This document shows, one piece after another, positions 4,825-34,921 of a stretch of DNA of 64,000 nucleotides (its first letter is position 1; the number at the start of each line of letters is the position of its first letter). The DNA is from Gammaproteobacteria bacterium (GTDB lineage: Bacteria; Pseudomonadota; Gammaproteobacteria; Eutrophobiales; Eutrophobiaceae): the NCBI GenBank assembly GCA_965202915.1, contig OZ241847.1, forward strand, positions 1,665,972 through 1,729,971, written 5' to 3'. Below the pieces are notes generated by a model. The model had not been told where the DNA came from, did no database searches, and saw only the letters and a program-made list of their open reading frames with translations. A program made the translations under genes and the position numbers.

Positions 4825-5838
4825 ATGGCAATTAGAGTGGGAATAAACGGATACGGCAGAATTGGCCGCAATATATTGCGCGCCGCCTATGAGTCCGGGC
4901 GCGATAAAGAGATTCAAATTGTGGCCATCAATGATCTGGGCGACGCCGGCAGCAACGCCCATCTGACCCGTTATGACACCGCCCACGGCAAATTTCCCGG
5001 CAGCGTCGAGACCGAACGCGATTGGATGATCGTCAATGGCGACCGGATAAAGGTGTTGTCTGAGCGGGATCCGGCGCGCCTGCCCTGGGGTGAACTGGAG
5101 GTCGATATCGTCTATGAATCCACCGGTTTGTTTGTCACCGGGGAAAAGGCCGGCGCCCACTTACAAGGCGGGGCAAAGAAGGTGATCATCTCGGCGCCCG
5201 GGGGCGAAGACGTGGATGCGACCATCGTCTATGGCGTCAATCATCACCTCCTGAAGGCCTCCGACCGGGTGATTTCAAATGCCTCGTGTACGACCAACTG
5301 TCTGGCGCCGGTGGTGCAGGTCATCGACGAACACGTTGGGCTTGTGAGCGGTATTATGACAACGGTGCACGCCTATACCAATGATCAGGTGCTCAGCGAC
5401 GTCTATCATCCCGATCTGCGGCGCGCCCGCTCGGCCACCATGTCGATGATCCCGACCAAAACCGGCGCCGCCAGGGCCGTGGGCCTGGTACTGCCGCAAC
5501 TCAAGGGCAAACTCAATGGTTACGCCATACGGGTGCCGACCCTTAATGTTTCGGTTATCGATCTCAGTCTGATCGCCGCCAGAGAAACCAGTGTCCGCGA
5601 AATTAATGCCCTTATGCGGGACGCCGCCGACGGCCGCTTGAAGGGGGTGCTGGCCTATAATGCGGAACCGTTGGTGTCGATAGATTTTAATCACCACCCG
5701 GCGTCTGCGATCCATGATGCGCCATTAACCCAGGTTATCGACGGTACCCTGGTGAAGGTGGTCGCCTGGTATGATAATGAATGGGGGTTCTCAAATAGAA
5801 TGCTGGACGTGGCGGTGGCGCTGATGCGGGCCGGCTGA
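4825..5838 (+). CDS. gap: Glyceraldehyde-3-phosphate dehydrogenase (type I).
   Basis: 337 aa. NAD-binding [10 protein letters not shown] and the active-site SCTTNCLAP motif are present. Confidence 0.97.
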
Positions 5839-5847
5839 GCAGTAACC

Positions 5848-7062
5848 GTGTCTATACTGGTAAAAATTGCCGATCTGGATCTGAATAATAAAACGGTACT
5901 CATCCGGGAAGATTATAATGTGCCGCTCAGAGACGGTCGGGTTGCGGACGATACCCGCATCGTCGCCAGCCTGCCGACCCTGCGGGAGATCGGCGCCGCC
6001 GAAAACGTGAAGATCATTATCGTCGCCCACCTGGGGCGTCCGATAGAGGGTGAATATGATGCGGCCTTTTCATTGCGCCCGGTTGCGGAGTGTCTGTCGC
6101 AACACCTGGGCGAGCCCATCCCACTGCTTAAAAACTGGATCGATGGCGTTGATTTTGGCGGTCATAAGCTGGTGCTGTGTGAAAACGTCCGCTTTGAGCG
6201 GGGCGAGAAAGATAATGAAGATGCGCTGGCCCGAAAAATGGCGGCACTGTGCAATATTTACGTGAACGATGCGTTTGCCACCGCCCACCGGGTTCAGGCT
6301 TCCACTTACGGGGTCGCCAAATATACCGCGATGGCCTGCGCCGGACCGTTATTGATCTCCGAACTCAAGGCCCTGTCCAAGGGGATCAAAGACCCTGAGC
6401 GGCCGTTGGTGGCGGTCGTCGGCGGGGCCAAGATCTCCACCAAACTGGTATTGCTGGAATCACTGGTGAATATTGCCGATCAACTGATCGTAGGCGGGGG
6501 CATAGCCAATACCCTGCTCCGGGCCGCGGGGTATCATATCGGTCGCTCACTGTATGAAGCCGATCTGGTTGGGGTCGCGGAAAAGATACTGCAACGGGCT
6601 GAAACCAGGCAATGCGCGATACCCCTGCCGGTGGACGTGGTCTGTGCAAAGGAGTGCAATGAGTCCGCCGGCGCCGAGGTAAAGCCGATAGCGGCGGTCG
6701 CCGATGATGATTTGATCCTGGACGTGGGCCCTGAAACCACCGCCACCCTGGTTGATTCCCTGGCGGGCGCCAATACCATCGTATGGAACGGGCCCCTGGG
6801 GGCGTTTGAATTTGATCAATTCGGTCAGAGTACCGGCGCGATAGCCGCCGCGATAGCCGCCAGTCCGGCGTATTCGATAGCCGGCGGCGGGGACACGCTG
6901 GCGGCGGTGACAAAATACGGCGTCACCGCCGGGATTGATTATATCTCCACCGGCGGCGGGGCATTTCTGGAATTTCTGGCGGGACAAAAATTACCGGCGA
7001 TAGCGATGCTGGAGGAAGCCACCCGCGCCTGGGTGGCGATGGAGCACGGCCGGGAACTGTAA
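5848..7062 (+). CDS. pgk: Phosphoglycerate kinase.
   Basis: 404 aa from a GTG start, with Pgk hallmarks (REDYNVPL, AHRAxAS, GGGAKISTK). Confidence 0.95.
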   Translation: MSILVKIADLDLNNKTVLIREDYNVPLRDGRVADDTRIVASLPTLREIGAAENVKIIIVAHLGRPIEGEYDAAFSLRPVAECLSQHLGEPIPLLKNWIDGVDFGGHKLVLCENVRFERGEKDNEDALARKMAALCNIYVNDAFATAHRVQASTYGVAKYTAMACAGPLLISELKALSKGIKDPERPLVAVVGGAKISTKLVLLESLVNIADQLIVGGGIANTLLRAAGYHIGRSLYEADLVGVAEKILQRAETRQCAIPLPVDVVCAKECNESAGAEVKPIAAVADDDLILDVGPETTATLVDSLAGANTIVWNGPLGAFEFDQFGQSTGAIAAAIAASPAYSIAGGGDTLAAVTKYGVTAGIDYISTGGGAFLEFLAGQKLPAIAMLEEATRAWVAMEHGREL

Positions 7063-7147
7063 GCGGCGATGATCGGCGGGGCCTGGCGTTGCCGGCAAAG
7101 TCCCAGGCATTCATTATAATATTCAAACTAACAACGCGGGGAGAGCT

Positions 7148-8173
7148 ATGACGATACGACAACAACTGCAGGAGACGGCGGCGGCGCTGGTTGCCCGGGG
7201 CAAGGGCATACTCGCGATAGACGAAAGCACGCCCACGATAAAGAAACGGTTTGATGCCATCGACGTCGAATCCACCGAGCAAAATCGCAGGAGCTATCGG
7301 GATCTGCTGATCACCAACCACGGCGACGCCGAATATATCAGCGGCATGATTCTGTATGACGAAACCATCCGCCAGGCCGCCGCCGACGGCACGCCCTTCC
7401 CACGGGTATTGATGAACAAAAACATTATGCCCGGCATTAAAGTCGACAAGGGCGCAAAAGAGCTGGCCCTGCACCCGGATGAAAAGGTAACCGAAGGACT
7501 GGATGGACTGGCCGACCGATTGGCCGAATACAACGCCCTCGGCGCGAAATTTGCCAAATGGCGCGCGGTGATCACGATAGGGGACAAGCTCCCCAGCCCG
7601 GCCTGCATAGACGCCAACGCCCATGCACTCGCCCGTTACGCCGGCCTGTGCCAGGCGGCCGGGCTGGTGCCGATAGTGGAACCGGAGGTATTGATGGACG
7701 CCGACCATACCATCGAGTGCTGTTACGAGGTGACCGCAAAAACCCTGTCGACCCTGTTTAATACGTTGCGTGGCCAGGGGGTCAGCATTGAACACACCCT
7801 GTTAAAAACCAATATGGTGATCGCCGGCAAACAATGTTCAAAGCAGGCCGGCGTCGACGAGGTGGCCGCGCAAACGGTGCGCTGTTTACGGCAAAACGTA
7901 CCGGCCGAGTTGCCGGGCATCGTGTTTCTTTCCGGCGGCCAGACCGCGGTACTTGCGACCGCCCACCTTAATGCAATGAACGCCGCCCATTCCGATCTGC
8001 CCTGGCCGTTGAGTTTTTCTTATGGCCGCGCATTGCAGGAGCCCTGCTTAAAGGTCTGGGGCGGCGACGCGGCAAATATTGCGGCGGCCCAAAAGGCATT
8101 ATTGCATCGTGAGCGATGCAACAGCCTGGCCTGTCTGGGGAAATATACGGAGGACGTGGAGCAGGCGGCCTGA
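7148..8173 (+). CDS. fba: Fructose-bisphosphate aldolase, class I.
   Basis: 341 aa. GKGILAIDES, the Schiff-base lysine context and the overall length are typical of class I FBA. Confidence 0.85.
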   Translation: MTIRQQLQETAAALVARGKGILAIDESTPTIKKRFDAIDVESTEQNRRSYRDLLITNHGDAEYISGMILYDETIRQAAADGTPFPRVLMNKNIMPGIKVDKGAKELALHPDEKVTEGLDGLADRLAEYNALGAKFAKWRAVITIGDKLPSPACIDANAHALARYAGLCQAAGLVPIVEPEVLMDADHTIECCYEVTAKTLSTLFNTLRGQGVSIEHTLLKTNMVIAGKQCSKQAGVDEVAAQTVRCLRQNVPAELPGIVFLSGGQTAVLATAHLNAMNAAHSDLPWPLSFSYGRALQEPCLKVWGGDAANIAAAQKALLHRERCNSLACLGKYTEDVEQAA

Positions 8174-8228
8174 TGCGCTTGTAGTGTACAAACTCTCCGG
8201 CGTTGGCCTATAATACAGGCTGTTTCAG

Positions 8229-8957
8229 ATGCTGAACAGGGGCAAAATAATGAGCAAACGCGGGGCTTACGGCGTGAACGAGGCCGTCGATTATAATGCG
8301 ATAAGCAGTGTTTGGACCGGCACGGATGCCGCGCTGCTTACGGAAATGCTGGATTTCTATCCGGTCATCGACACCGAGCCGATCCTGGATGCCACCTATA
8401 ACACGGGCCGCATGTGGCGGGGAACGGGCCGTAACCCTGTGTCCATGGACATCGACCCGCGGTACGCCCCCGATATTGTGGCGGACAACCGCGTTATGGC
8501 GGGCGTCCGGGACAATTCCTACGCAGTCGTGGTGTACGATCCGCCGCACGTCGGGCCGCAGGGCCGAGATAAGAGCAAAAAGCGCTTCGATGTGGACTTC
8601 GGCGCGACCATGGCTTGCGGAAAGGAGCACGGATGGAGCCTGAGCTACCTGTATCCGCCGTTCCTGGAGCAGGCCAGGCGCGTCCTCAAGCCGGATGGCA
8701 TTCTGCTCGCCAAGATCACCGACATTGTGAACAACCATCGCCAGCGCTGGGCGCACTGCGACTTCATAGCGATGGCCGGGAATGCCGGGTTCGTGGTCTG
8801 CGATCTGATTGTGAAAGTGCGAAAAGGGCCGATGAAGTCCACCAAATGGAAAAATGCTCAGCATGCCCGCAAGCGTCATTGTTTCTGGATCGTATGCCGC
8901 AACGGGCCATACAGCGAACGCAGGCTGAGTACCGGGGCCGATGTTGCGGTCGTATAA
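8229..8957 (+). CDS. Putative DNA amino-methyltransferase (N6-adenine/N4-cytosine type, DPPH variant of the DPPY motif).
   Basis: 242 aa. VVVYDPPH (motif IV-like) is preceded by a Gly-rich motif I-like segment. Its end overlaps the downstream GIY-YIG nuclease gene by 17 bp, as in R-M operons. Confidence 0.5.
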   Translation: MLNRGKIMSKRGAYGVNEAVDYNAISSVWTGTDAALLTEMLDFYPVIDTEPILDATYNTGRMWRGTGRNPVSMDIDPRYAPDIVADNRVMAGVRDNSYAVVVYDPPHVGPQGRDKSKKRFDVDFGATMACGKEHGWSLSYLYPPFLEQARRVLKPDGILLAKITDIVNNHRQRWAHCDFIAMAGNAGFVVCDLIVKVRKGPMKSTKWKNAQHARKRHCFWIVCRNGPYSERRLSTGADVAVV

Positions 8958-9474
8958 CCCACTCAGCATCGATGAACTGGGCCGGAACGCCGTGCGTGCC
9001 CTGATGGCCTACGACGTCGCCGAACTGCCACCCGGCGATCCGTTCCAGGGCGCAGGCGTCTATACGATCCACTACGCTGGGTCGTTTGCGCCATATGCAG
9101 GACTGGGTGAGACGCCGATCTATGTCGGCAGGGCAGACAATGACCTGCATGGCCGGCTGTCGGAGCACGCAGCGTCCATTGAAGCCGCAGAGAATCTGCG
9201 CCGCGATGAGTTCGGCTGCCGCTGGCTCGTGCTCGAACCGATCTGGATCAATCTGACCGAGAAAATCCTGATCGACCGGTACCGCCCCATCTGGAACAAG
9301 GTGCTGATAGGGTTCGGCATCCATGATCCGGGCGGTGGACGGCGCAATCAGCGTCGCTCCCAATGGGACACCGTGCATCCGGGAAGATCATGGTCGGCAA
9401 AGCAGCGCGAACCAGAGGAACCAGCCGGGCAACTGCTGGAACGAATCACACAGCATCGACGGCAAGAGCAATGA
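8941..9474 (+). CDS. GIY-YIG family nuclease, candidate type II restriction endonuclease (Eco29kI-like).
   Basis: 177 aa. GVYTIHY...PIYVGRADNDLHGRLSEH followed by conserved E and N residues gives the GIY-YIG catalytic pattern (Y, Y, R, H, E, N). It is translationally coupled to the upstream MTase. Confidence 0.5.
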   Translation: MLRSYNPLSIDELGRNAVRALMAYDVAELPPGDPFQGAGVYTIHYAGSFAPYAGLGETPIYVGRADNDLHGRLSEHAASIEAAENLRRDEFGCRWLVLEPIWINLTEKILIDRYRPIWNKVLIGFGIHDPGGGRRNQRRSQWDTVHPGRSWSAKQREPEEPAGQLLERITQHRRQEQ

Positions 9475-9593
9475 CGAAATAAGGACGGATCACAGGACAA
9501 AATTGACGCTGTTGCGCGAAAAGAATGGCCGTGCAGTGGCAACCGATGAATGCAACCGCTTGACTGTATTGCGCAACATGCTACACTTCATTT

Positions 9594-9866
9594 ATGATCA
9601 AGTCCTTCAAGCACAGAGGCCTGGAGATGTTTTACGAAAGTGGCAGTGTTAGAGGAATTCAGGCGAAGCACGCCGACAGACTGAGAATGCGACTGGCGGC
9701 CCCGGATACCGCTCAATCCATCGATGACATCGATATTCCAGGGTATCGATTGCATCCGTTGACGGGTGAGCGAACAGGTGGCTGGTCGATCACTGTAAAT
9801 GCAAACTGGCGCCTTTGAATTTAAAGAAGGAAATGTATATATATTAAATTACGAGGATTATCACTA
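9594..9866 (+). pseudogene. higB: HigB (RelE/ParE-superfamily) toxin interrupted by a +1 frameshift near 9813-9816.
   Basis: Frame 0 gives MIKSFKHRGLEMFYESGSVRGIQAKHADRLRMRL...GWSITVNANWRL then a stop at 9816-9818. The +1 frame continues FEFKEGNVYILNYEDYH and stops at TAA 9865-9867, overlapping the higA ATG (TAATG). Both parts match the canonical HigB (PF05015) N- and C-termini. Confidence 0.8.
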
Positions 9867-10160
9867 ATGGCTATGCACAATCCCCCCCATCCGGGTGAAT
9901 TTATCGTGGCTTCCTATATGGAACCATTTGGTTTAAGTTGCCACTATCTTGCTGCGAAATTAGACGTTGCCGCATCAACCCTTAACCGAGTGCTGAAAAA
10001 GCAAAGTGGTATCAGCCCGAAAATGGCACTGCGCCTGTCTAAAGCCCTGGGGCGTAGTCCTGAAAGCTGGCTGGTGATGCAGGATAATTATGATCTTTGG
10101 AAGGCAAGGGGACGGGTGGAACTTCAAAAGATCAAAAAGATACCCCTTAACGCCGCATAA
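9867..10160 (+). CDS. higA: HigA antitoxin (XRE-family HTH).
   Basis: 97 aa. The HTH segment ...LSCHYLAAKLDVAASTLNRVLKKQSGISPKMALRLSKALG... is present, and it sits immediately downstream of higB. Confidence 0.85.
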   Translation: MAMHNPPHPGEFIVASYMEPFGLSCHYLAAKLDVAASTLNRVLKKQSGISPKMALRLSKALGRSPESWLVMQDNYDLWKARGRVELQKIKKIPLNAA

Positions 10161-10277
10161 CCGCCCCCGGACGGGAACAACAAAGCCCTGGTCCGTGTGT
10201 TTGAGGGGTTGTTCAGAGGTGCTCTGATGATCAGTTGATTTGTATATTTAATCCAGCCGACGTAACATAGTAATACT

Positions 10278-10673
10278 ATGGCTGATATATGTCCCACAGT
10301 AGTCGTTATAGACGACAATAAAACCGTACTCTCTCAATTCCAGAGGAGTGTCGACAAACTCGATATGGAATTGAAGTTGATCTGTTTTGATGCTACGGCC
10401 GCGGCAATGGACTATTTAAAGGATAATAAACCCAAGGTCATCTTTCTGGATATACTGATGCCGGATATGAATGGCATTACTTTTTTGACCACCCTCAGAA
10501 AAATGCCCATGCACCAGTCAACATTTGTTATTATGATCACGTCCAAGGATTATGCCCAGGACCGACAGCTTGCAAGGGAATTGGGGGCGTTGGATTTTTT
10601 AACGAAACCCATCCCGACGCAGGTCATTACAGATTTAATTCTTACATATATCGATAAAGACAATCCTTATTAA
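10278..10673 (+). CDS. Single-domain response regulator (CheY-like receiver).
   Basis: 131 aa. The acidic pocket (VIDDN, ...FLDILMPDMNG) and conserved T/K positions are present, with no output domain. Confidence 0.8.
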   Translation: MADICPTVVVIDDNKTVLSQFQRSVDKLDMELKLICFDATAAAMDYLKDNKPKVIFLDILMPDMNGITFLTTLRKMPMHQSTFVIMITSKDYAQDRQLARELGALDFLTKPIPTQVITDLILTYIDKDNPY

Positions 10674-10689
10674 TTCGCCGCATTAAAGC

Positions 10690-11598
10690 ATGACCAGATA
10701 TTTGCACTTTTGGGGCGTGCGAGGTTCTTATGCCGCCCCGTTTGCAACCCATTTGAAGGTGGGGGGGAATACGTCTTGCGTGGAAATCAACGTCGATGGT
10801 CATTGTCTGATCTGCGACGCCGGTACCGGCATCATCCCTTTTGGGGAGGAGGCGATGACTAAAAACCAAACCAAAGAGCTGTTGGTTGTCCTGACCCATT
10901 ATCATTGGGATCATATCTGTGGCCTGCCTTTTTTTGTGCCGGCCTTTACCCCGGAATGGAAAATCCGGTTTTTTGGTCCCGGTGAAACGGAGGCGGAGAT
11001 ACGGCAAAATATCGGTTCCCAGATGCAGGCGCCTTATTTCCCGGTGGGCACTGAGACCTGGGCGGCGAATATCTCCTATATCGATCCGGCAATAACGCAT
11101 ATACCATACGGCCCGTTTTCAATTTCGAGATACGGGGTGCATCACCCCGGATTAACCTATGGTTACCGAATTGATACCGGTGGCAAATCGATAGTCTATG
11201 TTTCCGACAATGAGTGTCAGTTTTTTGATAAGTCGATAAAACGCGATTGGCCCAAATTCAGTGAAGAAGAGAAGGCGATGTTCCAGGAAATGAATCGGGA
11301 AGAATATGAAATTGAACTGCGCGGGGTCCGGGAGGCGGATATTTTAATCCATGACGCGCAGTATTCTCCCGAAGATTACCAGACGAAACGGGGCTGGGGT
11401 CATTCCTGTTATACCGACGTGGTCAACATGGCCATAGACGCCGGGGTGAAATCACTCTATATGTATCATCATGATCCAAACCATAATGATGATGAGATCG
11501 AAGCCTTCCATGAGGAAAGTTTGAAAATCATTCAGCAAAGAGGGGCTTCGTTACAATGTCACGTCGCCAGAGAAGGTCTGATCGTTCCTCTTGATTAA
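10690..11598 (+). CDS. MBL-fold metallo-hydrolase.
   Basis: 302 aa with the HxHxDH motif (LTHYHWDHICGLPFF) and downstream His/Asp ligands. Confidence 0.75.
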   Translation: MTRYLHFWGVRGSYAAPFATHLKVGGNTSCVEINVDGHCLICDAGTGIIPFGEEAMTKNQTKELLVVLTHYHWDHICGLPFFVPAFTPEWKIRFFGPGETEAEIRQNIGSQMQAPYFPVGTETWAANISYIDPAITHIPYGPFSISRYGVHHPGLTYGYRIDTGGKSIVYVSDNECQFFDKSIKRDWPKFSEEEKAMFQEMNREEYEIELRGVREADILIHDAQYSPEDYQTKRGWGHSCYTDVVNMAIDAGVKSLYMYHHDPNHNDDEIEAFHEESLKIIQQRGASLQCHVAREGLIVPLD

Positions 11599-11621
11599 CC
11601 GGTCACCATTGGGCCTTTAGC

Positions 11622-11822
11622 ATGATGCAAGTGATAGTGAACGGTCAAGATTATCATCTGGCCGAGGGCAGCACCATTGCCGGTCTCCTCACGCTGTTGG
11701 ACGTGGACGGAAAACTGGCGGTGGAAATCAATCACAGTATTATTCCCCGCGGCAATTTTGCCTCGCATACCATCCACCCCGGCGATGCGATAGAAATTAT
11801 CCGCGCCATTGGCGGCGGTTGA
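11622..11822 (+). CDS. thiS: Sulfur carrier protein ThiS.
   Basis: 66 aa ending in GG, with a ubiquitin-like fold pattern. It sits directly upstream of thiG. Confidence 0.85.
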
Positions 11823-11842
11823 TCCAGCCTGCGTATCGTAAT

Positions 11843-12640
11843 ATGAATACTCATACCCCCGCTGATCAACCACTGATTATTGCGAACGAGCGGTATCATT
11901 CACGTCTGCTGGTCGGCACCGGCAAGTATAAAGACGCGCGGGAAATGGACGCGGCCATTGCGGCAAGCGGCGCGCAGATCGTCACCATCGCAATCCGACG
12001 CATGAATATCGGACGAGACAAAGGCCAAACGGATCTGCTGGACCTGATCTCGCCGGATCAATACACGCTTTTACCGAACACGGCCGGCTGTTATGACGCC
12101 GAGTCGGCAATCCGTACCTGCCGGCTGGCGAGGGAATTACTCGATGGCCACACACTTATAAAACTGGAAGTCCTTGGCGATGAGAAAACGCTTTATCCCC
12201 ACCTGCCACAAACACTGAAGGCCGCGGAGCAGTTGATCAAGGATAATTTTGACGTTATGGTTTATACCACCGACGACCCGGTCATGGCGCGCGAATTTGA
12301 ACAGCTTGGTTGCGTTGCAGTGATGCCGCTGGCCGCACCCATCGGTTCCGGTCTGGGGATACGCAACCGCTATAATATACGCACCATCGTTGAAAATGCG
12401 TCCGTTCCAATTCTGGTGGACGCCGGCGTCGGCACCGCCTCTGACGCCGCTATCGCGATGGAGCTCGGCTGCGACGGGGTATTAATGAACACCGCCATTG
12501 CCGAGGCAAAGCAGCCGGTTTTAATGGCGGCGGCAATGAAAAAGGCAATGGCGGCCGGTCGGGAAGCCTATCTTGCCGGAAGAATGCCGCGCCGCGCCTA
12601 TGCCAGCGCGTCCTCTCCGATAGACGGCACTTTCTTTTAG
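11843..12640 (+). CDS. thiG: Thiazole synthase ThiG.
   Basis: [36 protein letters not shown] matches the ThiG N-terminus. An ATG at 11843 is chosen as the start (the ORF is open from 11819). Confidence 0.9.
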
Positions 12641-12646
12641 GCCAAC

Positions 12647-13378
12647 GTGCCGATGGGCAATGATCCGCCCGGCCGCCGCAGGATCCGCAGCTTTGTAAGG
12701 CGGGAAGGCAGAATGACCCCGGCTCAGCGGGCCGCGCTGGATGGCCTGTGGCAAAATTACGGCGTCGCCTATTCGCAGGCATTGCTTGCCCTCGCGGATA
12801 TTTTTGGCCGCAATGCGCCCGTTATTATCGACATCGGTTCGGGTGCGGGCACGTTCACCTTGCAGCACGCCCGGTGCCACCCCGAAAACAATTATATCGC
12901 CATCGAGGTCCACAGGCCGGGCGTGGGCCGGCTGTTGCGGGATATTCATAAATCCGGATTAAAAAATATTCGGATCATCAACCATGACGCGGTTGAGGTA
13001 CTGGAACATCAGATTCCATCAAACACCATAGATGAGATAACCATTTTCTTTCCCGATCCCTGGCCAAAAAAACGACATCACAAGCGCCGACTCATCCAAC
13101 CGCCTTTTCTGCAAACGCTCAAATCCGCGTTAAAATCAAACGGCCGGCTGTTCATCGCAACCGACTGGCCGGATTATGCCGCGCATATCATCGCCCTGTG
13201 CGACCATGATCCGGAATTAATTAATCTCGCCGGCCGCGGCAACCCGGCACCGCGCCCCAAATGGCGGCTGTTGACCGCATACGAAAACCGCGGATTAAAA
13301 TTAAAGCACGAGGTTAAGGATTTTTATTACGCCAAATCGCATGGCCGCCCGCAAATGCCATCGGCTTCCGGAGAATAG
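12647..13378 (+). CDS. trmB: tRNA (guanine46-N7)-methyltransferase TrmB.
   Basis: The N-terminal RRIRSFVRREGRMT resembles E. coli TrmB, and SAM-MTase motifs (IDIGSGAG, FFPDPWPKKRHHKRR) are present. Confidence 0.9.
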   Translation: MPMGNDPPGRRRIRSFVRREGRMTPAQRAALDGLWQNYGVAYSQALLALADIFGRNAPVIIDIGSGAGTFTLQHARCHPENNYIAIEVHRPGVGRLLRDIHKSGLKNIRIINHDAVEVLEHQIPSNTIDEITIFFPDPWPKKRHHKRRLIQPPFLQTLKSALKSNGRLFIATDWPDYAAHIIALCDHDPELINLAGRGNPAPRPKWRLLTAYENRGLKLKHEVKDFYYAKSHGRPQMPSASGE

Positions 13379-30763: not shown

Positions 30764-33085
30764 TTGCCGTCATCTTCACAGGGGGGCAAACCGCATTCGG
30801 AGCAGATTCTAAACGCTATTGTTATGCCCAAATCACTGAACCTCGATCTCGAACAACCGGAAAAACAGCCCCTGCATGAATTTGCCGAGCAGGCTTATCT
30901 GGATTATTCCATGTACGTCATTCTGGACCGGGCGATCCCCGCCATCGGTGACGGTCTTAAACCGGTGCAGCGCCGGATCATTTATGCCATGTCCGAATTG
31001 GGCCTAAAGGCGACCGCAAAATATAAAAAATCCGCCCGTACCATCGGCGACGTGATCGGTAAATTTCATCCCCACGGCGATGCCGCCTGTTATGAATCGA
31101 TGGTATTAATGGCGCAGGATTTTTCCTGCCGTTATCCATTGATCGATGGTCAGGGTAATTGGGGGTCCATGGATGATCCCAGGTCCTTTGCCGCAATGCG
31201 TTATACCGAGTCAAAACTGACCGCCTATGCCGACCTGTTGATGAGCGAGGTCGGCCAGGGTACGGTCGACTGGATGCCGAATTTTGACGGCACCCTGCGG
31301 GAACCGCAATTACTGCCGGCGCGCTTGCCCAATATCCTGTTAAACGGATCGGCGGGCATTGCGGTGGGCATGGCCACCAATATTCCGCCGCATAACCTGC
31401 GCGAGGTCGCGGCCGCCTGCATCCATTTGCTGGACTCGCCCAGGGCCACGGTTGAAGAACTCTGTGAATATATCAAAGCCCCTGATTTTCCCACCAACGC
31501 CGAAATCATTACCCCGGTCGAGGAGCTTTTGGAGATCTATAAAAGCGGCGGCGGCTCAGTCAAAATGCGGGCCGTGTGGCAGCGGGAGGACGATAATATT
31601 ATTATCACCGCGTTGCCGTACCAGAGTGCCGGCGGTCGGGTGTTGGAACAGATAGCCGCGCAAATGCAGGCGAAAAAACTGCCGATGCTGGCCGATCTGC
31701 GAGATGAATCCGATCATGAGAACCCCACCCGGCTGGTGTTGATCCCCCGTTCCGGCCGATTCGACCCGGATAAATTGATGTCGCATCTGTTTGCCACCAC
31801 CGATCTGGAGAAAAGCAGCCGGGTTAATCTGAATATCATCGGCATCAATGGCCGGCCACGGGTAAAAGACCTGGCGACGATCCTCAGGGAATGGTTGCAA
31901 TATCGGCTGGCGACGGTCAGACGCCGCCTGCAGCATCGCCTGGACAGCATAGAGGCACAACTGCATATATTGGCGGGCCTGATGATCGCCTATCTGAACC
32001 TGGACGCGATCATTGCGATAATACGGGAACAGGAGAACCCGAAATTAATACTGCGGCGGCAGTTTGCACTCAGCGACCGGCAGGCCGAGGCGATACTGGA
32101 ATTAAAATTACGCAAACTGGCCCGATTGGAGGAGCTCAAACTCAAGGGCGAACTCGATAAACTTGAGGCCGAACGCCGCTCATTGCAGCAGATTCTCGGC
32201 TCCCGGCGGCGGCTCAATACATTGATCAAACGAGAGTTACAGGCGGACGCGAAAACCTTTGGCGATGACAGACTATCACCATTGAAGCAAAGACGGGAAG
32301 CCAGGGCCATCGACCCGGTAAGCCTGGTGCCCACCGAACCGATCACCGTTATTCTTTCAAAAAAAGGCTGGATCAGGGCCGCAAAGGGCCATAACATCGA
32401 TCCGCTGGCATTGAATTATCGCAGTGGTGACGGCCTCCGGCAGACCAGCGCCGGCAGAAGTAATCAAAACGTTTTATTGCTGGATTCCACCGGCCGCTGC
32501 TATTCCCTGCCGGCACATTCCCTGGCCTCCGCACGCGGTCTGGGTGAACCGGTTTCAGGACGGTTGATGCCGCCGGATGGCGCGGTATTTATCGGCGTGA
32601 TGACCGGCGATCCCGAGGCCATGTATTTGCTGGCCTCGGACGCCGGCTATGGTTTTGTTGCAACCCTGGCGGCGCTGCATACCAGGAATAAAAACGGCAA
32701 GGCGGTGATCACCGTGCCGGCAGGGGCAAAGCTGCTTTGCCCGGCGGGGGTTGACGACGTGGAAACCGGTCGAGTGGCGGTAGTCAGCTCAATCGGGCGG
32801 TTGCTGATTTTTCCAATCGCTGAATTACCGGTATTGTCGAAGGGCAAGGGCCTGAAGATCATTCAAATTCCGCCGCAAAAATTGAAGACAGGAGCGGAAC
32901 GGGTCGCCGCAATCACCGCCCTTGGCCACGCCGATGATCTGATCATTCACTCAGGCCAGAGATATATGACCCTCAGGCGGCGCGATCAGGAATACTATCT
33001 TGGCCGCCGCGGACGCCGAGGCAACACCCTGCCGCAGGGGTTTCGCAACGTCGCCCGGTTAAAGGCCGGCGGGGTCGATACGTGA
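30764..33085 (+). CDS. parC: DNA topoisomerase IV subunit A.
   Basis: 773 aa. The N-terminus [45 protein letters not shown] matches E. coli ParC. Confidence 0.9.
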
Positions 33086-33426
33086 ACGGCGGTTGCGTCG
33101 GAAGACGACCCTTGCCAGGCGGTGAATCTGCACATCCTATGACCACTTGCACACCGCCTATAACCACGAACATCGTAAAGCACGGCACAAAGGCGTATAT
33201 GAATGGAATGGCTCACACAAACGGCATTGAGAGTGTCTGGGCGATGCTGAAAAGAGGGATTTACGGCACCTATCACCATGTCAGCAAAAAGCACCTTAAC
33301 CGCTATATTGACGAGTTCATATTCCATTTGAATGAGGGAAACGTCAATGTCTTGCTGGTAAGCCGTATCGCTTCGTTGAGTTGTATGAGCGCAGGCATGC
33401 CCTATAAGCCACTGCTCAGGGGATGA
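33082..33426 (+). mobile_element. IS1595-family (ISXO2-like) transposase C-terminal remnant.
   Basis: ...HTNGIESVWAMLKRGIYGTYHHVSKKHLNRYIDEFIFHLNEGNV... matches the C-terminal DDE-region tail of IS1595-family transposases. The N-terminal ~250 aa are absent, and the fragment abuts the parC stop codon. Confidence 0.65.
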
Positions 33427-34343
33427 GCACAATGCCAAGTCTCAATGCTATTGCGGCTAGTTGTTCAAAGTCCATATTCCAGTCACGCATTATCACCGGC
33501 GATGTTCTGAAAACACTGAAAAACCAGCCCTTTAATCTGAAGTTTGATGTAGTAATTGCCGACCCGCCGTATAACATTGGCAAGGATTTTGGGAACAACA
33601 ACGATAGCCTACCTATTGACGATTATGTCGACTGGTGCAACCAATGGCTAGAGCAATGCTTTCGCCTGTTGACCGATAATGGATTGGTCTATGTGTACGG
33701 GTTCCACGAGGTTTTAGCGCGTATTGCAGTAAATTATCCGGTGGATGAGCAACGCTGGCTGGCGTGGCATTACACTAACAAAGCAGTGCCATCCTCAAAG
33801 TTCTGGCAACGATCCCACGAGGCAATCCTGTGCCTGTGGAAACCGGGGACCAAGCGGCCAATATTGGAAATTGACCAAATCCGAGAACCATACACACCCA
33901 ATTTCCTCAAATGTGCTGGCAGGGAGAGAAACGACACAAAGGGCAGGTACAGCAAAAAAGGAAAAAAGACAATTTACAACGACAACGGCGGCGCACTTCC
34001 TCGTGATGTAATTGATATACCTGCATTAGCTGGCGGTGCTGGTCGGGTGGAGCGGTGGTTTTCATGCCGGGAATGTGGCGGAGAGGTGAGGCCGCCTAGT
34101 GAATTGGCAAATCATGCTGGCCACAGCATACTCAAACATCCTACTCAAAAACCAATGGAGTTGACTAGGCGGCTGATATTGTCCCGAATCAACGGCCGGC
34201 AGGGCCGCACCTTGATACCCTTCACAGGGTCAGGCTCCGAGTGTGTAGTTGCAAAATCGCTTGGAGTCGAGTTTCTTGGCATTGAAATCAATCCTGAATA
34301 CGCTAAATTCGGGCGCAGTTGGTTAAAGCAATGTACCACTTGA
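33423..34343 (+). CDS. Site-specific DNA methyltransferase (N4/N6 amino-MTase, beta class).
   Basis: 306 aa. DPPY (VVIADPPYNIG) lies upstream of motif I (IPFTGSGSECVVA). The HPTQKP motif and a Cys-rich insert are present. Confidence 0.85.
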   Translation: MSTMPSLNAIAASCSKSIFQSRIITGDVLKTLKNQPFNLKFDVVIADPPYNIGKDFGNNNDSLPIDDYVDWCNQWLEQCFRLLTDNGLVYVYGFHEVLARIAVNYPVDEQRWLAWHYTNKAVPSSKFWQRSHEAILCLWKPGTKRPILEIDQIREPYTPNFLKCAGRERNDTKGRYSKKGKKTIYNDNGGALPRDVIDIPALAGGAGRVERWFSCRECGGEVRPPSELANHAGHSILKHPTQKPMELTRRLILSRINGRQGRTLIPFTGSGSECVVAKSLGVEFLGIEINPEYAKFGRSWLKQCTT

Positions 34344-34921
34344 CTCCGCGAATGACGCAACGGCTCAAAGCGGACCTGGCCAAATACCACGATCTGTTCA
34401 CAGGAAAACGATGCGAGAGTTGGGAATTGGAAGAGTTGATTGTTGCAGCAATCAAATCAGACACGCAGGCACAGCATCATGTTCGTTGGCAGGAAAAGGG
34501 GCATGATGATCTCGCCGATATTGTCGTGCGGACGAATGGATCACAGCATTCAATTCAAATCAAATCCGGGCAGATAAAAGCAGGCAAGTTGATATTGTCT
34601 GGCCACAGATTGGGCCGATTCAATGGCGTAATGGATGATATTGGCGCATACCTCAATACGCCGAGAGCAAATATCATGGCGGTTCCGCACAGATTGATAG
34701 ATGATAGCAAAGGGCGCCAGCATATTTATCGCGTATGCTATGTGGATATTAAGATAATGACTGGCCTTGAGACCAATAAATGGGAAAAGCGGGGCGCGCA
34801 ATATGTCCAAACAAACGCGGGAGGTGTAGAGTTCTCTTTGCGGCCGTCTATGAGTTGGCAAATCTGGTGGGCTATACCCGTAAGCCTAATTGAACAAACC
34901 GATGAGTTTGTTATCGGCTAG
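34319..34921 (+). CDS. Putative type II restriction endonuclease (PD-(D/E)XK-like), cognate to the upstream MTase.
   Basis: 200 aa overlapping the MTase by 25 bp. A candidate catalytic core HDDLADIVVR...SIQIKSG (D...D...QxK) is present. The assignment rests mainly on context. Confidence 0.45.
   Translation: MVKAMYHLTPRMTQRLKADLAKYHDLFTGKRCESWELEELIVAAIKSDTQAQHHVRWQEKGHDDLADIVVRTNGSQHSIQIKSGQIKAGKLILSGHRLGRFNGVMDDIGAYLNTPRANIMAVPHRLIDDSKGRQHIYRVCYVDIKIMTGLETNKWEKRGAQYVQTNAGGVEFSLRPSMSWQIWWAIPVSLIEQTDEFVIG

What the first reader, a model, noticed from the sequence alone, without database searches (positions are those of the whole stretch)
8229..9474. Compact R-M-like pair: small amino-MTase (DPPH) plus a GIY-YIG nuclease, inserted right after fba
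Two overlapping genes encode a 242-aa methyltransferase-like protein with a DPPH variant of motif IV and a 177-aa protein with a complete GIY-YIG catalytic constellation (GVY...IYVGRA...H...E...N). GIY-YIG restriction enzymes (the Eco29kI family) normally pair with C5-MTases, so a GIY-YIG REase partnered with an amino-MTase would be an unusual combination. Together with the adjacent higBA genes this forms a ~2-kb defence islet.
Basis: partly seen in the sequence, partly recalled or inferred. Interest (0 to 1): 0.55.

Follow-up and report, generated by a model that had tools for sequence, protein, structure and literature searches.

The report
Compact restriction-modification pair, IS1595 cargo elsewhere
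The two overlapping genes are an intact restriction-modification pair (an Eco29kI-type GIY-YIG nuclease plus a tiny, poorly annotated amino-methyltransferase) that in many other bacteria is carried inside IS1595-family jumping genes; here it sits without its transposase.

Summary
ORF 8229-8957 (242 aa, DPPH motif) and ORF 8941-9474 (177 aa) overlap by 17 nt.

- **Nuclease.** It is a clear Eco29kI-family restriction enzyme (Pfam PF09517, E 5e-44). It is 42% identical to Eco29kI, and all six catalytic residues are kept.
- **Methyltransferase.** It misses Pfam's threshold but has a class-I SAM-methyltransferase fold. By profile-profile comparison (98% probability) it is homologous to the experimentally validated small gamma-type M.NruI/M.Sbo13I group.
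- **Pairing.** The pairing is systematic: 67 of 80 genome loci with this methyltransferase have an adjacent Eco29kI-like gene, and 6 of 6 loci found from the nuclease have the methyltransferase.
- **Selection.** Both genes are under purifying selection.
- **Likely function.** A Type IIP system that probably cuts CCGCGG and protects it by N4-cytosine methylation. The target and the modified base are inferred.

The unexpected part is mobility. In about a quarter of loci the pair lies directly downstream of an IS1595 transposase, inside terminal inverted repeats with 8-bp target duplications, and one genome carries four copies. The window copy has no transposase or IS ends. A second cassette at 33.1-34.9 kb does keep a transposase stub.

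The "defence islet" idea is weak, because higB is frameshifted.

The parts
8185..8214 (+). Promoter-like site (TGTACA-18 nt-TATAAT, 10 of 12 matches) in the 55-nt spacer between the fba stop and the methyltransferase ORF. It is a candidate own promoter for the cassette.
   Evidence: Consensus scan. It is a consensus match only; function is inferred.
8229..8957 (+). Small amino-methyltransferase gene (242-aa ORF; probable true start ATG 8250, 235 aa). It has a class-I Rossmann SAM-MTase fold with motif order I-II-III-IV-V-VIII and no separate target-recognition domain. It belongs to a DPPH family distantly related to the M.NruI/M.Sbo13I gamma subgroup.
   Evidence: ORF. Weak Pfam, PADLOC and PDB matches. 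Family of at least 1437 clusters, 119 of the top 120 without a Pfam domain. Structure model pLDDT 70.7, pTM 0.73. Fold matches. Full-length alignment with the pSB13 (Sbo13I) MTase. hhalign 98.1%, E 1e-13. dN/dS 0.035-0.055.
8538..8549 (+). Codons for DPPH (residues 104-107). This is motif IV of amino-methyltransferases with His in place of the usual Tyr/Phe/Trp, at the C-terminal end of predicted strand beta-4 (residues 98-104).
   Evidence: Sequence. Secondary structure. DPPH and LDxTxNxGR are present in 120 of the 120 top homologues. It aligns with DPPY of M.Sbo13I.
8941..9474 (+). Eco29kI-family GIY-YIG Type II restriction endonuclease gene (177 aa). Its start overlaps the methyltransferase gene by 17 nt (8941-8957), which suggests translational coupling.
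   Evidence: Pfam PF09517 E 4.9e-44. PADLOC REase_II 1.5e-35. PDB Eco29kI E 4e-29. Six catalytic residues conserved, 68/163 identity. dN/dS about 0.2.

Best explanation
Positions 8229-9474 encode an intact two-gene Type IIP restriction-modification system.

Shown:
- The downstream gene is an Eco29kI-family GIY-YIG endonuclease with a complete active site.
- The upstream gene is a minimal SAM-dependent amino-methyltransferase of about 220-240 aa. Its fold and motif order are those of the small gamma-type M.NruI/M.Sbo13I enzymes.
- The two gene families are almost always adjacent, across at least nine phyla.
- Both genes are under purifying selection.

Inferred:
- The nuclease cuts unmethylated CCGCGG, because every characterised family member does.
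- That site has no adenine and the partner has no C5-MTase motifs, so the methyltransferase should protect host DNA by N4-methylating a cytosine in CCGCGG.
- The invariant but structurally unresolved segment right after DPPH (residues 108-133, HVGPQGRDKSxKRFDxDFGA) is the likely DNA-recognition element.
- The M-then-R order with a 17-nt overlap lets methylase translation precede and gate nuclease translation.

Origin (partly shown, partly inferred): the same cassette is cargo of IS1595-family transposable elements in other genomes (Tnp-M-R, sometimes with a small extra ORF, inside GGG[G/A]ATTAT... inverted repeats with 8-bp target duplications, up to 4 copies per genome). The window copy is a transposase-less version lodged at a synteny break after fba, probably expressed from its own promoter-like site.
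For: - Nuclease identity. Catalytic residue list from PMC1952068.
- Methyltransferase fold and motifs.
- Homology to the experimentally cloned Sbo13I methylase: tblastn E 4e-8 over 83% of the query; pSB13 annotation; alignment; hhalign 98.1%, E 1.1e-13 over 196 columns; biochemical background in PMC2890505.
- Systematic pairing: 35 co-directional plus 32 convergent Eco29kI-like ORFs next to 80 MTase loci. The convergent type was confirmed as PF09517, E 9e-17. Reciprocally, 6 of 6 loci found from the nuclease have the MTase.
- No other MTase gene was called within 5 kb in L002-L006, L087, L088 and L090-L092.
- Purifying selection.
- m4C/CCGCGG precedent with an Eco29kI-like nuclease: PMC10855626 and PMC6712171.
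- CCGCGG depletion in DNA flanking nuclease-positive cassettes (O/E 0.73, z -5.1) but not methylase-only loci (1.03).
- IS1595 cargo.
- Transposase or its 3' remnant directly upstream in 20 of 80 loci.
- Tnp and MTase divergence correlated (Mantel r 0.52, 8 of 5000 permutations).
- Promoter-like site.
Against: - No biochemical or methylome data exist for this methyltransferase family. The Pfam match is below threshold, and the fold searches return generic SAM-MTases, not specifically DNA MTases.
- Motif I has N-x-G instead of G-x-G, and motif IV has His instead of an aromatic Tyr/Phe/Trp.
- Specificity is extrapolated from 42% identity. I could not read the Eco29kI-DNA structure paper, so DNA-contact residues were not checked.
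- The window itself shows no CCGCGG avoidance: 38 sites against 37.5 expected, Markov O/E 0.95.
- The flank-depletion contrast is confounded by taxonomy, and many other palindromes are depleted as well.
- The window cassette has no transposase, no IS ends and no target duplication. Its IS1595 origin is therefore circumstantial.
Confidence: 0.75

Rival explanations
1. It is a working R-M pair, but with a different target and/or chemistry than inferred: the nuclease recognises something other than CCGCGG, and the methyltransferase makes m6A, as proposed for M.NruI.
For: - The nuclease is only 42% identical to Eco29kI and lacks a 19-aa loop.
- The convergent partner nucleases are only 28-39% identical to it.
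- The nearest validated methylases act on TCGCGA, and M.NruI is probably m6A (PMC2890505).
- There is no CCGCGG avoidance in the window.
Against: - All characterised Eco29kI-family enzymes (Eco29kI, Cfr42I, R.DraR1) cut CCGCGG, including R.DraR1, which the authors describe only as highly similar to Eco29kI.
- The missing loop contains R86, shown to be dispensable, and is absent in many intact relatives.
- The family-specific C-terminal block GFGxHxPGxxRxxQxxSxWDxxHPGRxW is conserved.
- CCGCGG is depleted in flanks of nuclease-positive loci but not methylase-only loci.
Confidence: 0.2
2. The module is primarily part of the transposon's own life cycle and not host defence. It could act as an addiction module that kills cells losing the IS. 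Alternatively, the GIY-YIG nuclease could make breaks at unmodified sites that promote spread of the element (homing-like), with the methylase as self-protection.
For: - The genes form a tight operon-like fusion with the transposase gene: the Tnp stop overlaps the MTase start.
- The pair lies inside the IRs in six independent elements.
- One genome has four copies.
- Tnp and MTase divergence correlate.
- GIY-YIG nucleases are common in homing elements (general knowledge; PMC3045582 abstract).
Against: - About 75% of loci, including the window, have no transposase, yet both genes remain intact under purifying selection. The pair therefore has value independent of transposition.
- The nuclease is a bona fide Eco29kI-type REase, not an I-TevI-type enzyme with a long-target DNA-binding domain.
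- Post-segregational killing is a general property of Type II R-M systems, so it is not an alternative mechanism so much as an additional role.
Confidence: 0.12
3. The pair in this window is a decaying or silent remnant: the nuclease is inactivated or the genes are unexpressed after loss of the transposase promoter.
For: - There is no transposase or IS ends.
- The neighbouring higB is frameshifted.
- 13 of 80 related loci have lost the nuclease altogether.
- The nearly invariant His211 is Gln in the window MTase.
Against: - Both ORFs are full length, with every invariant and catalytic residue except that one.
- dN/dS is well below 1.
- A promoter-like site lies in the upstream spacer.
- An identical 1.8-kb sequence was assembled from an independent read set.
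Confidence: 0.1
4. The 242-aa protein is not a DNA methyltransferase at all (for example an RNA or small-molecule methyltransferase, or a non-catalytic nuclease inhibitor). The pair would then be a toxin-antitoxin-like couple.
For: - Pfam is below threshold.
- The top structural neighbours are tRNA, rRNA and small-molecule MTases.
- Motifs I and IV are atypical.
Against: - Full-length homology to M.Sbo13I, which protects DNA from Sbo13I in vivo (PMC2890505).
- The D-P-P motif sits at the beta-4 end, as in exocyclic-amine MTases.
- PADLOC Type II MTase models hit at 4e-6.
- In 13 loci it persists alone, as orphan methylases do.
Confidence: 0.05

Closest known systems
Eco29kI / Cfr42I Type IIP R-M systems (CCGC/GG; GIY-YIG nuclease plus C5-cytosine methyltransferase)
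   Same: The nuclease is homologous (PF09517, 42% identity to Eco29kI). It has all six catalytic residues and the family-specific C-terminal block. The system is a compact two-gene unit.
   Different: The partner methylase is an amino-MTase of about 230 aa, not a C5-MTase of about 380 aa (no PC/ENV motifs). The nuclease lacks a 19-aa loop and about 8 N-terminal residues. The genes are co-directional and overlapping.
DraI system of Deinococcus radiodurans (R.DraR1 + M.DraR1, C-m4C-GCGG; PMC10855626, PMC6712171)
   Same: An Eco29kI-like nuclease protected by an amino (N4-cytosine) methyltransferase. This is the precedent that makes m4C at CCGCGG the likely chemistry here.
   Different: M.DraR1 is a large alpha-class enzyme (FxGxG ... 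TRD ... SPPY) and is unrelated in architecture. Its gene lies ten ORFs away from the nuclease gene, and no IS1595 linkage is reported.
M.NruI / M.Sbo13I subgroup of gamma-type amino-methyltransferases (TCGCGA; PMC2890505)
   Same: Small size (about 250 aa). Motif order X-I-II-III-IV-V-VIII without a separate TRD. A conserved extension after motif IV. Shared blocks D.T.G.G.FW, DPPx, RVLK..G, GF...DL.V.VR and HARK.H. hhalign probability 98%. The target has a CGCG core.
   Different: Only 24-28% identity. Motif IV is DPPH, not DPPY. Motif I has N-x-G, not G-x-G. The partner nuclease belongs to a different family (the 224-aa pSB13 ORF has no Pfam match). That system also has an HTH controller gene, which is absent here.
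IS1595-family insertion sequences with passenger genes ('frontier between IS and transposons', Siguier et al. 2009, cited in PMC2853133), and transposon-like R-M units (Furuta et al. 2010)
   Same: In relatives: a Zn-ribbon plus DDE_Tnp_IS1595 transposase, short imperfect terminal IRs, 8-bp target duplications, and passenger genes inside the IRs.
   Different: The window copy has none of these features. The specific, recurrent Tnp-M-R module with this MTase/nuclease pair was not found in the literature I could search. I could not read Siguier 2009, so prior description cannot be excluded.

Membership tests
Eco29kI family of GIY-YIG restriction endonucleases (Pfam PF09517) | Profile match above the curated threshold | tested here: met
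   150.5 bits against a cut-off of 30.8, E 4.9e-44, profile positions 2-163 of 164. PADLOC REase_II 1.5e-35. PDB Eco29kI E 4e-29.
Eco29kI family of GIY-YIG restriction endonucleases (Pfam PF09517) | Catalytic residues Y49, Y76, R104, H108, E142, N154 (PMC1952068) | tested here: met
   They align to Y41, Y61, R72, H76, E107 and N119 of the window protein. They are also conserved in all 11 relatives aligned.
Eco29kI family of GIY-YIG restriction endonucleases (Pfam PF09517) | Recognition and cleavage of CCGC/GG | not testable with these tools
   Inferred from family membership. Weak indirect support comes from CCGCGG depletion in flanks of nuclease-positive loci (O/E 0.73 against 1.03). There is no depletion in the window.
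Eco29kI family of GIY-YIG restriction endonucleases (Pfam PF09517) | Cognate C5-cytosine methyltransferase next to the nuclease (canonical systems) | tested here: not met
   The adjacent gene is an amino-MTase-like protein. No PF00145 gene was called within 5 kb in the window's relatives, and no ORF resembling a C5 methyltransferase appears in window 5500-13000 (by inspection).
M.NruI/M.Sbo13I subgroup of gamma amino-methyltransferases | Significant sequence similarity over the whole catalytic core | tested here: met
   tblastn E 4e-8, 83% coverage to the pSB13 MTase. hhalign probability 98.1%, E 1.1e-13, 196 columns.
M.NruI/M.Sbo13I subgroup of gamma amino-methyltransferases | Motif order I-II-III-IV-V...VIII in one small domain without a separate TRD | tested here: met
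   Predicted strands and helices: beta1 52-56, beta2 71-74, beta4 98-104 (DPPH at its end), helix 142-152, beta5 153-165, helix 175-185, beta6 189-196, beta7 217-225. Alignment A4.
M.NruI/M.Sbo13I subgroup of gamma amino-methyltransferases | Motif IV = DPPY and motif I G-x-G loop | tested here: not met
   Motif IV is DPPH in 120 of 120 family members. Motif I is LDxTxNxGR, with one Gly only. The family is therefore a distinct sister group, not a member sensu stricto.
M.NruI/M.Sbo13I subgroup of gamma amino-methyltransferases | SAM-dependent methylation of DNA that protects against the cognate nuclease | not testable with these tools
   Needs a protection assay or a methylome.
Beta-class N6/N4 DNA methyltransferases (Pfam PF01555) | Profile match above threshold, with motif IV N-terminal to motif I | tested here: not met
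   20 bits against a cut-off of 26.7, partial match to profile positions 34-97 of 221. The motif order is I then IV. 119 of 120 homologues carry no Pfam domain.
IS1595-family transposable element carrying the pair as cargo | Zn-ribbon/DDE_Tnp_IS1595 transposase adjacent, terminal inverted repeats, 8-bp target duplication | tested here: not met
   At the window locus there is no transposase (55-nt spacer to fba), no IS ends and no flanking repeats. The features are met in relatives: L003-L006, L090/L091, L034, L039, L110, L060.
   HigA is intact (TIGR02607, 109.5 bits against 47.7). The higB reading frame stops after residue 74, and the canonical C-terminus AFEFKEGNVYILNYEDYH is in the +1 frame. 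The Pfam match covers only positions 1-74 of 91.

The most novel reading that the evidence does not exclude
The DPPH methyltransferase and its Eco29kI-like nuclease form a dedicated, long co-inherited cargo of IS1595-family transposons: an 'R-M-armed insertion sequence' spread across at least nine bacterial phyla. The Tnp-methylase backbone is stable, while the nuclease gene is swapped between co-directional and convergent versions. The module stabilises the IS by post-segregational killing. Because the methylase escapes standard domain annotation, many Eco29kI-like nucleases now listed as 'orphans' would in fact be complete m4C systems. The window would then hold two decayed insertions of such elements (8.2-9.5 kb and 33.1-34.9 kb).
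Probability: 0.35. Interest if true: 0.6.

Novelty: new variant of a known kind. Interest (0 to 1): 0.4.

Why it matters
- **Annotation gap.** A widespread, extremely conserved methyltransferase family has at least 1437 clusters, and 119 of the top 120 carry no Pfam domain. It is very probably the protective partner of Eco29kI-type nucleases. Surveys that rely on domain calls would score these nucleases as solitary and would undercount m4C systems. A 2024 survey found only 3 putative m4C CCGCGG systems against 310 m5C ones.
- **A minimal enzyme.** An enzyme of about 220 aa with no separate recognition domain, yet apparent 6-bp specificity, would be one of the smallest sequence-specific DNA methyltransferases. 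It would be a good structural target.
- **Mobility.** The recurrent Tnp-M-R architecture inside IS1595 ends, with multicopy genomes and transposase stubs left next to R-M genes, gives a concrete, testable route by which Type II systems reach positions between housekeeping genes.

For this window alone, the finding is an ordinary, intact Type II R-M cassette.

Tried and rejected
- IS ends in the window: searches with the L003-type end (6 hits against 8.8 expected, none flanking the cassette) and the L090-type end (0 hits), plus a repeat search around the cassette, gave nothing.
- CCGCGG avoidance in the window: none (38 against 37.5; O/E 0.95).
- The Eco29kI-DNA co-crystal paper (PMC2955809) is not held, so base-contact residues could not be compared.
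- Source names for the exact proteins: none. Only one relative is named ('DNA methylase N-4/N-6 domain-containing protein').
- Literature searches for a DPPH motif IV, and for IS1595 with methyltransferase passengers, gave no specific description.
- Empty-site comparison: the nearest fba relatives are only 77-78% identical and are non-syntenic downstream, so the insertion boundaries cannot be defined.
- The metagenome scan from the nuclease returned only 6 loci, so the reciprocal association rests on a small sample.
- dS is saturated, so the dN/dS values are rough.
- The idea that high MTase identity reflects recent spread was rejected because synonymous sites are saturated.
Full report
**1. 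What is in the sequence**

ORF listing and direct reading confirm two co-directional ORFs at the stated coordinates: 8229-8957 (242 aa) and 8941-9474 (177 aa). They overlap by 17 nt and lie 55 nt downstream of a class-I fructose-bisphosphate aldolase gene (7148-8173). higB-like (9594-9818) and higA (9867-10160) ORFs follow. G+C is about 0.58-0.63 across the pair, as in the upstream glycolytic genes, and falls to about 0.47 from higB onward. A sigma-70-like site (TGTACA-18-TATAAT, 8185-8214) lies in the upstream spacer. Homologues begin near residues 8-22 of the first ORF, and AGGGG precedes ATG 8250, so 8250 is the likelier start.

**2. The nuclease**

The 177-aa protein matches Pfam RE_Eco29kI at E 4.9e-44 (150.5 bits, cut-off 30.8). 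It also matches PADLOC Type II REase models at 1.5e-35 and the crystallised Eco29kI at E about 4e-29.

In a multiple alignment it is 42% identical to Eco29kI (68 of 163 positions). It keeps all six residues shown by mutagenesis to form the Eco29kI active site: Y49/Y76/R104/H108/E142/N154 correspond to Y41/Y61/R72/H76/E107/N119 (PMC1952068). It also keeps the family-specific block GFGxHxPGxxRxxQxxSxWDxxHPGRxW.

It lacks a 19-aa loop between the YVGKA strand and the R..EH helix. That loop contains R86, whose alanine mutant is fully active, and the same short form occurs in several intact relatives (L090, L089, L002). So this is a restriction-enzyme-type GIY-YIG protein, not a homing- or UvrC-type one.

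**3. The methyltransferase-like protein**

Standard profiles are weak:
- Pfam N6_N4_Mtase: 20 bits, below the 26.7 cut-off.
- PADLOC MTase_II: 4e-6.
- M.TaqI in the PDB: E 0.15.

A database search shows it belongs to a large family (at least 1437 clusters at E <= 1e-3) of 216-270-aa proteins. The top hits are 69-88% identical to it, and 119 of the top 120 carry no Pfam domain. All 120 have DPPH followed by VGP, and all have LDxTxNxGR where motif I should be.

The decisive link came from annotated plasmids. The protein aligns over its full length (24-28% identity) with the methylase of pSB13 from Shigella boydii and with two similar plasmid genes annotated as DNA methyltransferases. pSB13 carries the methylase, a convergent 224-aa ORF and an HTH gene. 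I take it to be the Sbo13I plasmid, an identification based on its name and content. M.NruI and M.Sbo13I were cloned and shown to protect DNA. Their authors described them as a separate subgroup of gamma-type amino-methyltransferases with DPPY and extra motifs IVa and Xa, with M.Sbo13I probably an m4C enzyme (PMC2890505). A profile-profile comparison of the two families gives 98.1% probability, E 1.1e-13, over 196 columns.

The DPPH family is therefore a sister group of validated small DNA amino-methyltransferases. It differs in motif IV (His for Tyr) and in the motif I loop. The segment after DPPH (residues 108-133) is invariant in sequence but has pLDDT below 50. I infer that it is the DNA-recognition element and orders only on DNA.

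**4. Is the pairing real?**

A scan of one genome per GTDB species found 251 relatives of the methylase, and 80 loci were fetched. They come from Planctomycetota, Chloroflexota, Acidobacteriota, Alpha- and Gammaproteobacteria, Cyanobacteria, Verrucomicrobia, Latescibacterota, Spirochaetia and others, at 65-77% identity.

ORF-level classification of the 80 loci:

| Arrangement | Loci |
|---|---|
| Co-directional Eco29kI-like ORF immediately downstream, as in the window | 35 |
| Convergent Eco29kI-like ORF immediately downstream | 32 |
| No nuclease detected | 13 |

Most convergent ORFs are a minimal form of about 153 aa, confirmed as PF09517 at E 9e-17. So 84% of loci carry an adjacent family nuclease. 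Starting from the nuclease instead, all 6 metagenome loci recovered have the DPPH methylase directly upstream. In the loci with gene calls, no other DNA methylase lies nearby.

Against its three nearest relatives, the window's methylase has dN/dS 0.035-0.055 and the nuclease about 0.2. Synonymous sites are saturated. Both genes are therefore maintained by selection, and the methylase's high identity reflects strong constraint, not recent transfer.

**5. Likely mechanism**

Every characterised Eco29kI-family enzyme cuts CCGC/GG (Eco29kI, Cfr42I, R.DraR1). That site has no adenine, and the partner lacks C5 motifs. The best inference is therefore N4-cytosine methylation of CCGCGG, as M.DraR1 does (C-m4C-GCGG).

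Weak independent support comes from site counts. In about 449 kb of DNA flanking nuclease-positive cassettes, CCGCGG has a Markov O/E of 0.73 (z -5.1). In about 86 kb flanking methylase-only loci it is 1.03. This contrast is confounded by taxonomy, and the window itself shows no avoidance.

Gene order and the 17-nt overlap suggest that nuclease translation is coupled to methylase translation. This is an inference.

**6. The unexpected context: IS1595 elements**

Exact-protein look-ups of relatives showed the pair directly downstream of, and overlapping, a Zn-ribbon/DDE_Tnp_IS1595 transposase gene. One 5.5-Mb Terriglobia chromosome carries four copies. Aligning those copies defines an element of about 2.4 kb. 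Its ends are GGGGATTATCCATTTAACTAGCC and the complement of GGGGATTATCCAGCAAACTAGCC, with 8-bp target duplications (CGAATTAA, AAGTAAAT).

The relative closest to the window that still has a transposase (methylase 86% identical) lies in a different IS1595 element. That element has perfect 25-nt IRs, the duplication ATTTCATA, a conserved 59-aa ORF and even a tRNA-Leu-like gene inside the IRs. Four more independent elements enclose Tnp+M+R within GGG(G/A)ATTAT... IRs. One of them has the convergent nuclease and the duplication CTCCGGTT.

Across the 80 loci, 13 have a full or nearly full transposase gene directly upstream, and 7 more retain only its 3' end abutting the methylase start. Among 14 full elements, transposase identity is 30-69% and methylase identity 66-91%, and the two are correlated (Mantel r 0.52; 8 of 5000 permutations reach it). 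The pair L034/L060 shares the most similar transposase (69%) and methylase (91%) but has nucleases of opposite orientation and type. This suggests nuclease replacement on a stable Tnp-methylase backbone.

Carriage on predicted viral contigs is rare (7 hits). R-M genes flanked by IS elements, and transposon-like R-M units with 8-bp duplications, have been noted in general (PMC2853133). I found no description of this particular module, but I could not read the IS1595 founding paper or query REBASE.

**7. Status of the window copy**

There is no transposase, IS end or flanking repeat around 8229-9474. DNA similarity to relatives is confined to the two coding regions (8264-9397). The closest relative of all (88% methylase identity) is likewise a bare pair wedged between two housekeeping genes.

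In the nearest fba-bearing genomes (77-78% identity), fba ends a conserved tkt-gap-pgk-pyk-fba cluster, and what follows differs in each. The site is therefore a synteny break, but no empty site is available. An IS1595 origin with later loss of the transposase is plausible but not shown.

Supporting that scenario, the same window contains a second cassette between parC and efp. It consists of a 3' stub of an IS1595 transposase (33082-33426; PF12762 E 9e-17; NF033547), whose stop overlaps the start of a beta-class N6/N4 methylase (33423-34343; PF01555 E 5e-32). An overlapping 200-aa ORF with no detectable family follows (34319-34921).

**8. The 'islet' claim**

higA is intact, but higB is frameshifted. 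Frame 0 stops after ...NWRL, and the canonical C-terminus AFEFKEGNVYILNYEDYH continues in frame +1, ending in a TAATG overlap with higA. The same sequence was assembled from another read set. None of the related cassettes examined has higBA next to it. The two modules look like independent arrivals at a variable spot, and the toxin is probably dead.

**9. Verdict**

The R-M interpretation is supported, with the partner methylase assigned by remote homology and by context. The 'unusual combination' is real relative to canonical m5C systems, but it has a functional precedent (DraI) and is common in environmental genomes.

It is best filed as a new variant of a known kind: a Type IIP system whose methylase belongs to an uncharacterised DPPH sister group of M.NruI/M.Sbo13I, and which is recurrently carried by IS1595 elements.

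Confidence levels:
- The pair is a functional R-M system: about 0.85.
- Target CCGCGG with m4C protection: about 0.6.
- This copy descends from an IS1595 insertion: about 0.5.

Noticed in passing
window 33082-34921: A second R-M-like cassette lies between parC (30764-33085) and efp (34992-). It has a C-terminal stub of an IS1595-family transposase (33082-33426). The stub's stop overlaps (ATGA) the start of a 306-aa beta-class N6/N4 DNA methyltransferase (33423-34343). An overlapping 200-aa ORF (34319-34921) follows, with no Pfam, NCBIfam, PADLOC or PDB match; it is a candidate novel restriction enzyme.
   Followed up: partly
window 9594-9867: higB is frameshifted. Frame 0 ends at 9818 after 74 codons (...ITVNANWRL*), and the canonical HigB C-terminus AFEFKEGNVYILNYEDYH* is in frame +1, ending in a TAATG overlap with higA (9867). 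higA is intact, so this looks like an orphaned antitoxin beside a dead toxin.
   Followed up: partly
L090 3431-3503 (also L091): A 73-nt tRNA-Leu(GAG)-like gene on the minus strand lies inside the inverted repeats of an IS1595-family element that carries Tnp, methylase, nuclease and a 59-aa ORF. A tRNA gene as IS cargo is odd. It may be a captured fragment or a false call.
   Followed up: no
L090 3222-3401 and L089 2602-2778; L003 6253-6411: Small ORFs of 52-59 aa directly follow the nuclease gene in several elements. The L090 and L089 versions are conserved with each other (…PTKAELE.R.KL.R). The L003 version is unrelated and rich in Lys/Arg (KRGRPIKR). No Pfam match was found. They could be controller-like proteins. 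The window has no such ORF.
   Followed up: partly
L034 versus L060 (genome-contig loci): These two elements share the most similar transposase (69%) and methylase (91%) of the set. L034 has a co-directional nuclease of about 190 aa, while L060 has a convergent minimal nuclease of 150 aa. The nuclease gene seems to be exchangeable on a constant Tnp-methylase backbone.
   Followed up: partly
flanks of L007-L086: CCGCGG is depleted (Markov O/E 0.73, z -5.1) in DNA flanking cassettes that have a nuclease, but not in flanks of methylase-only loci (O/E 1.03). This could be a way to infer the target computationally if repeated on whole genomes with phylogenetic control.
   Followed up: partly
window 4825-8173 versus L096-L098: Relatives have tkt-gap-pgk-pyk-fba, whereas the window has gap-pgk-fba with no pyruvate kinase gene between pgk and fba. 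In one relative (L096) the variable region after fba holds a different R-M pair (MethyltransfD12 + Endonuc-EcoRV). This spot may be a recurrent landing site for R-M genes.
   Followed up: no
window 9500-11600: G+C drops from about 0.60 to 0.42-0.49 from the higBA region through a lone response-regulator gene (10278-10673) and a metallo-beta-lactamase-fold-like ORF (10690-11598; assignment by eye, not tested). This suggests a separate acquired segment next to the R-M cassette.
   Followed up: no
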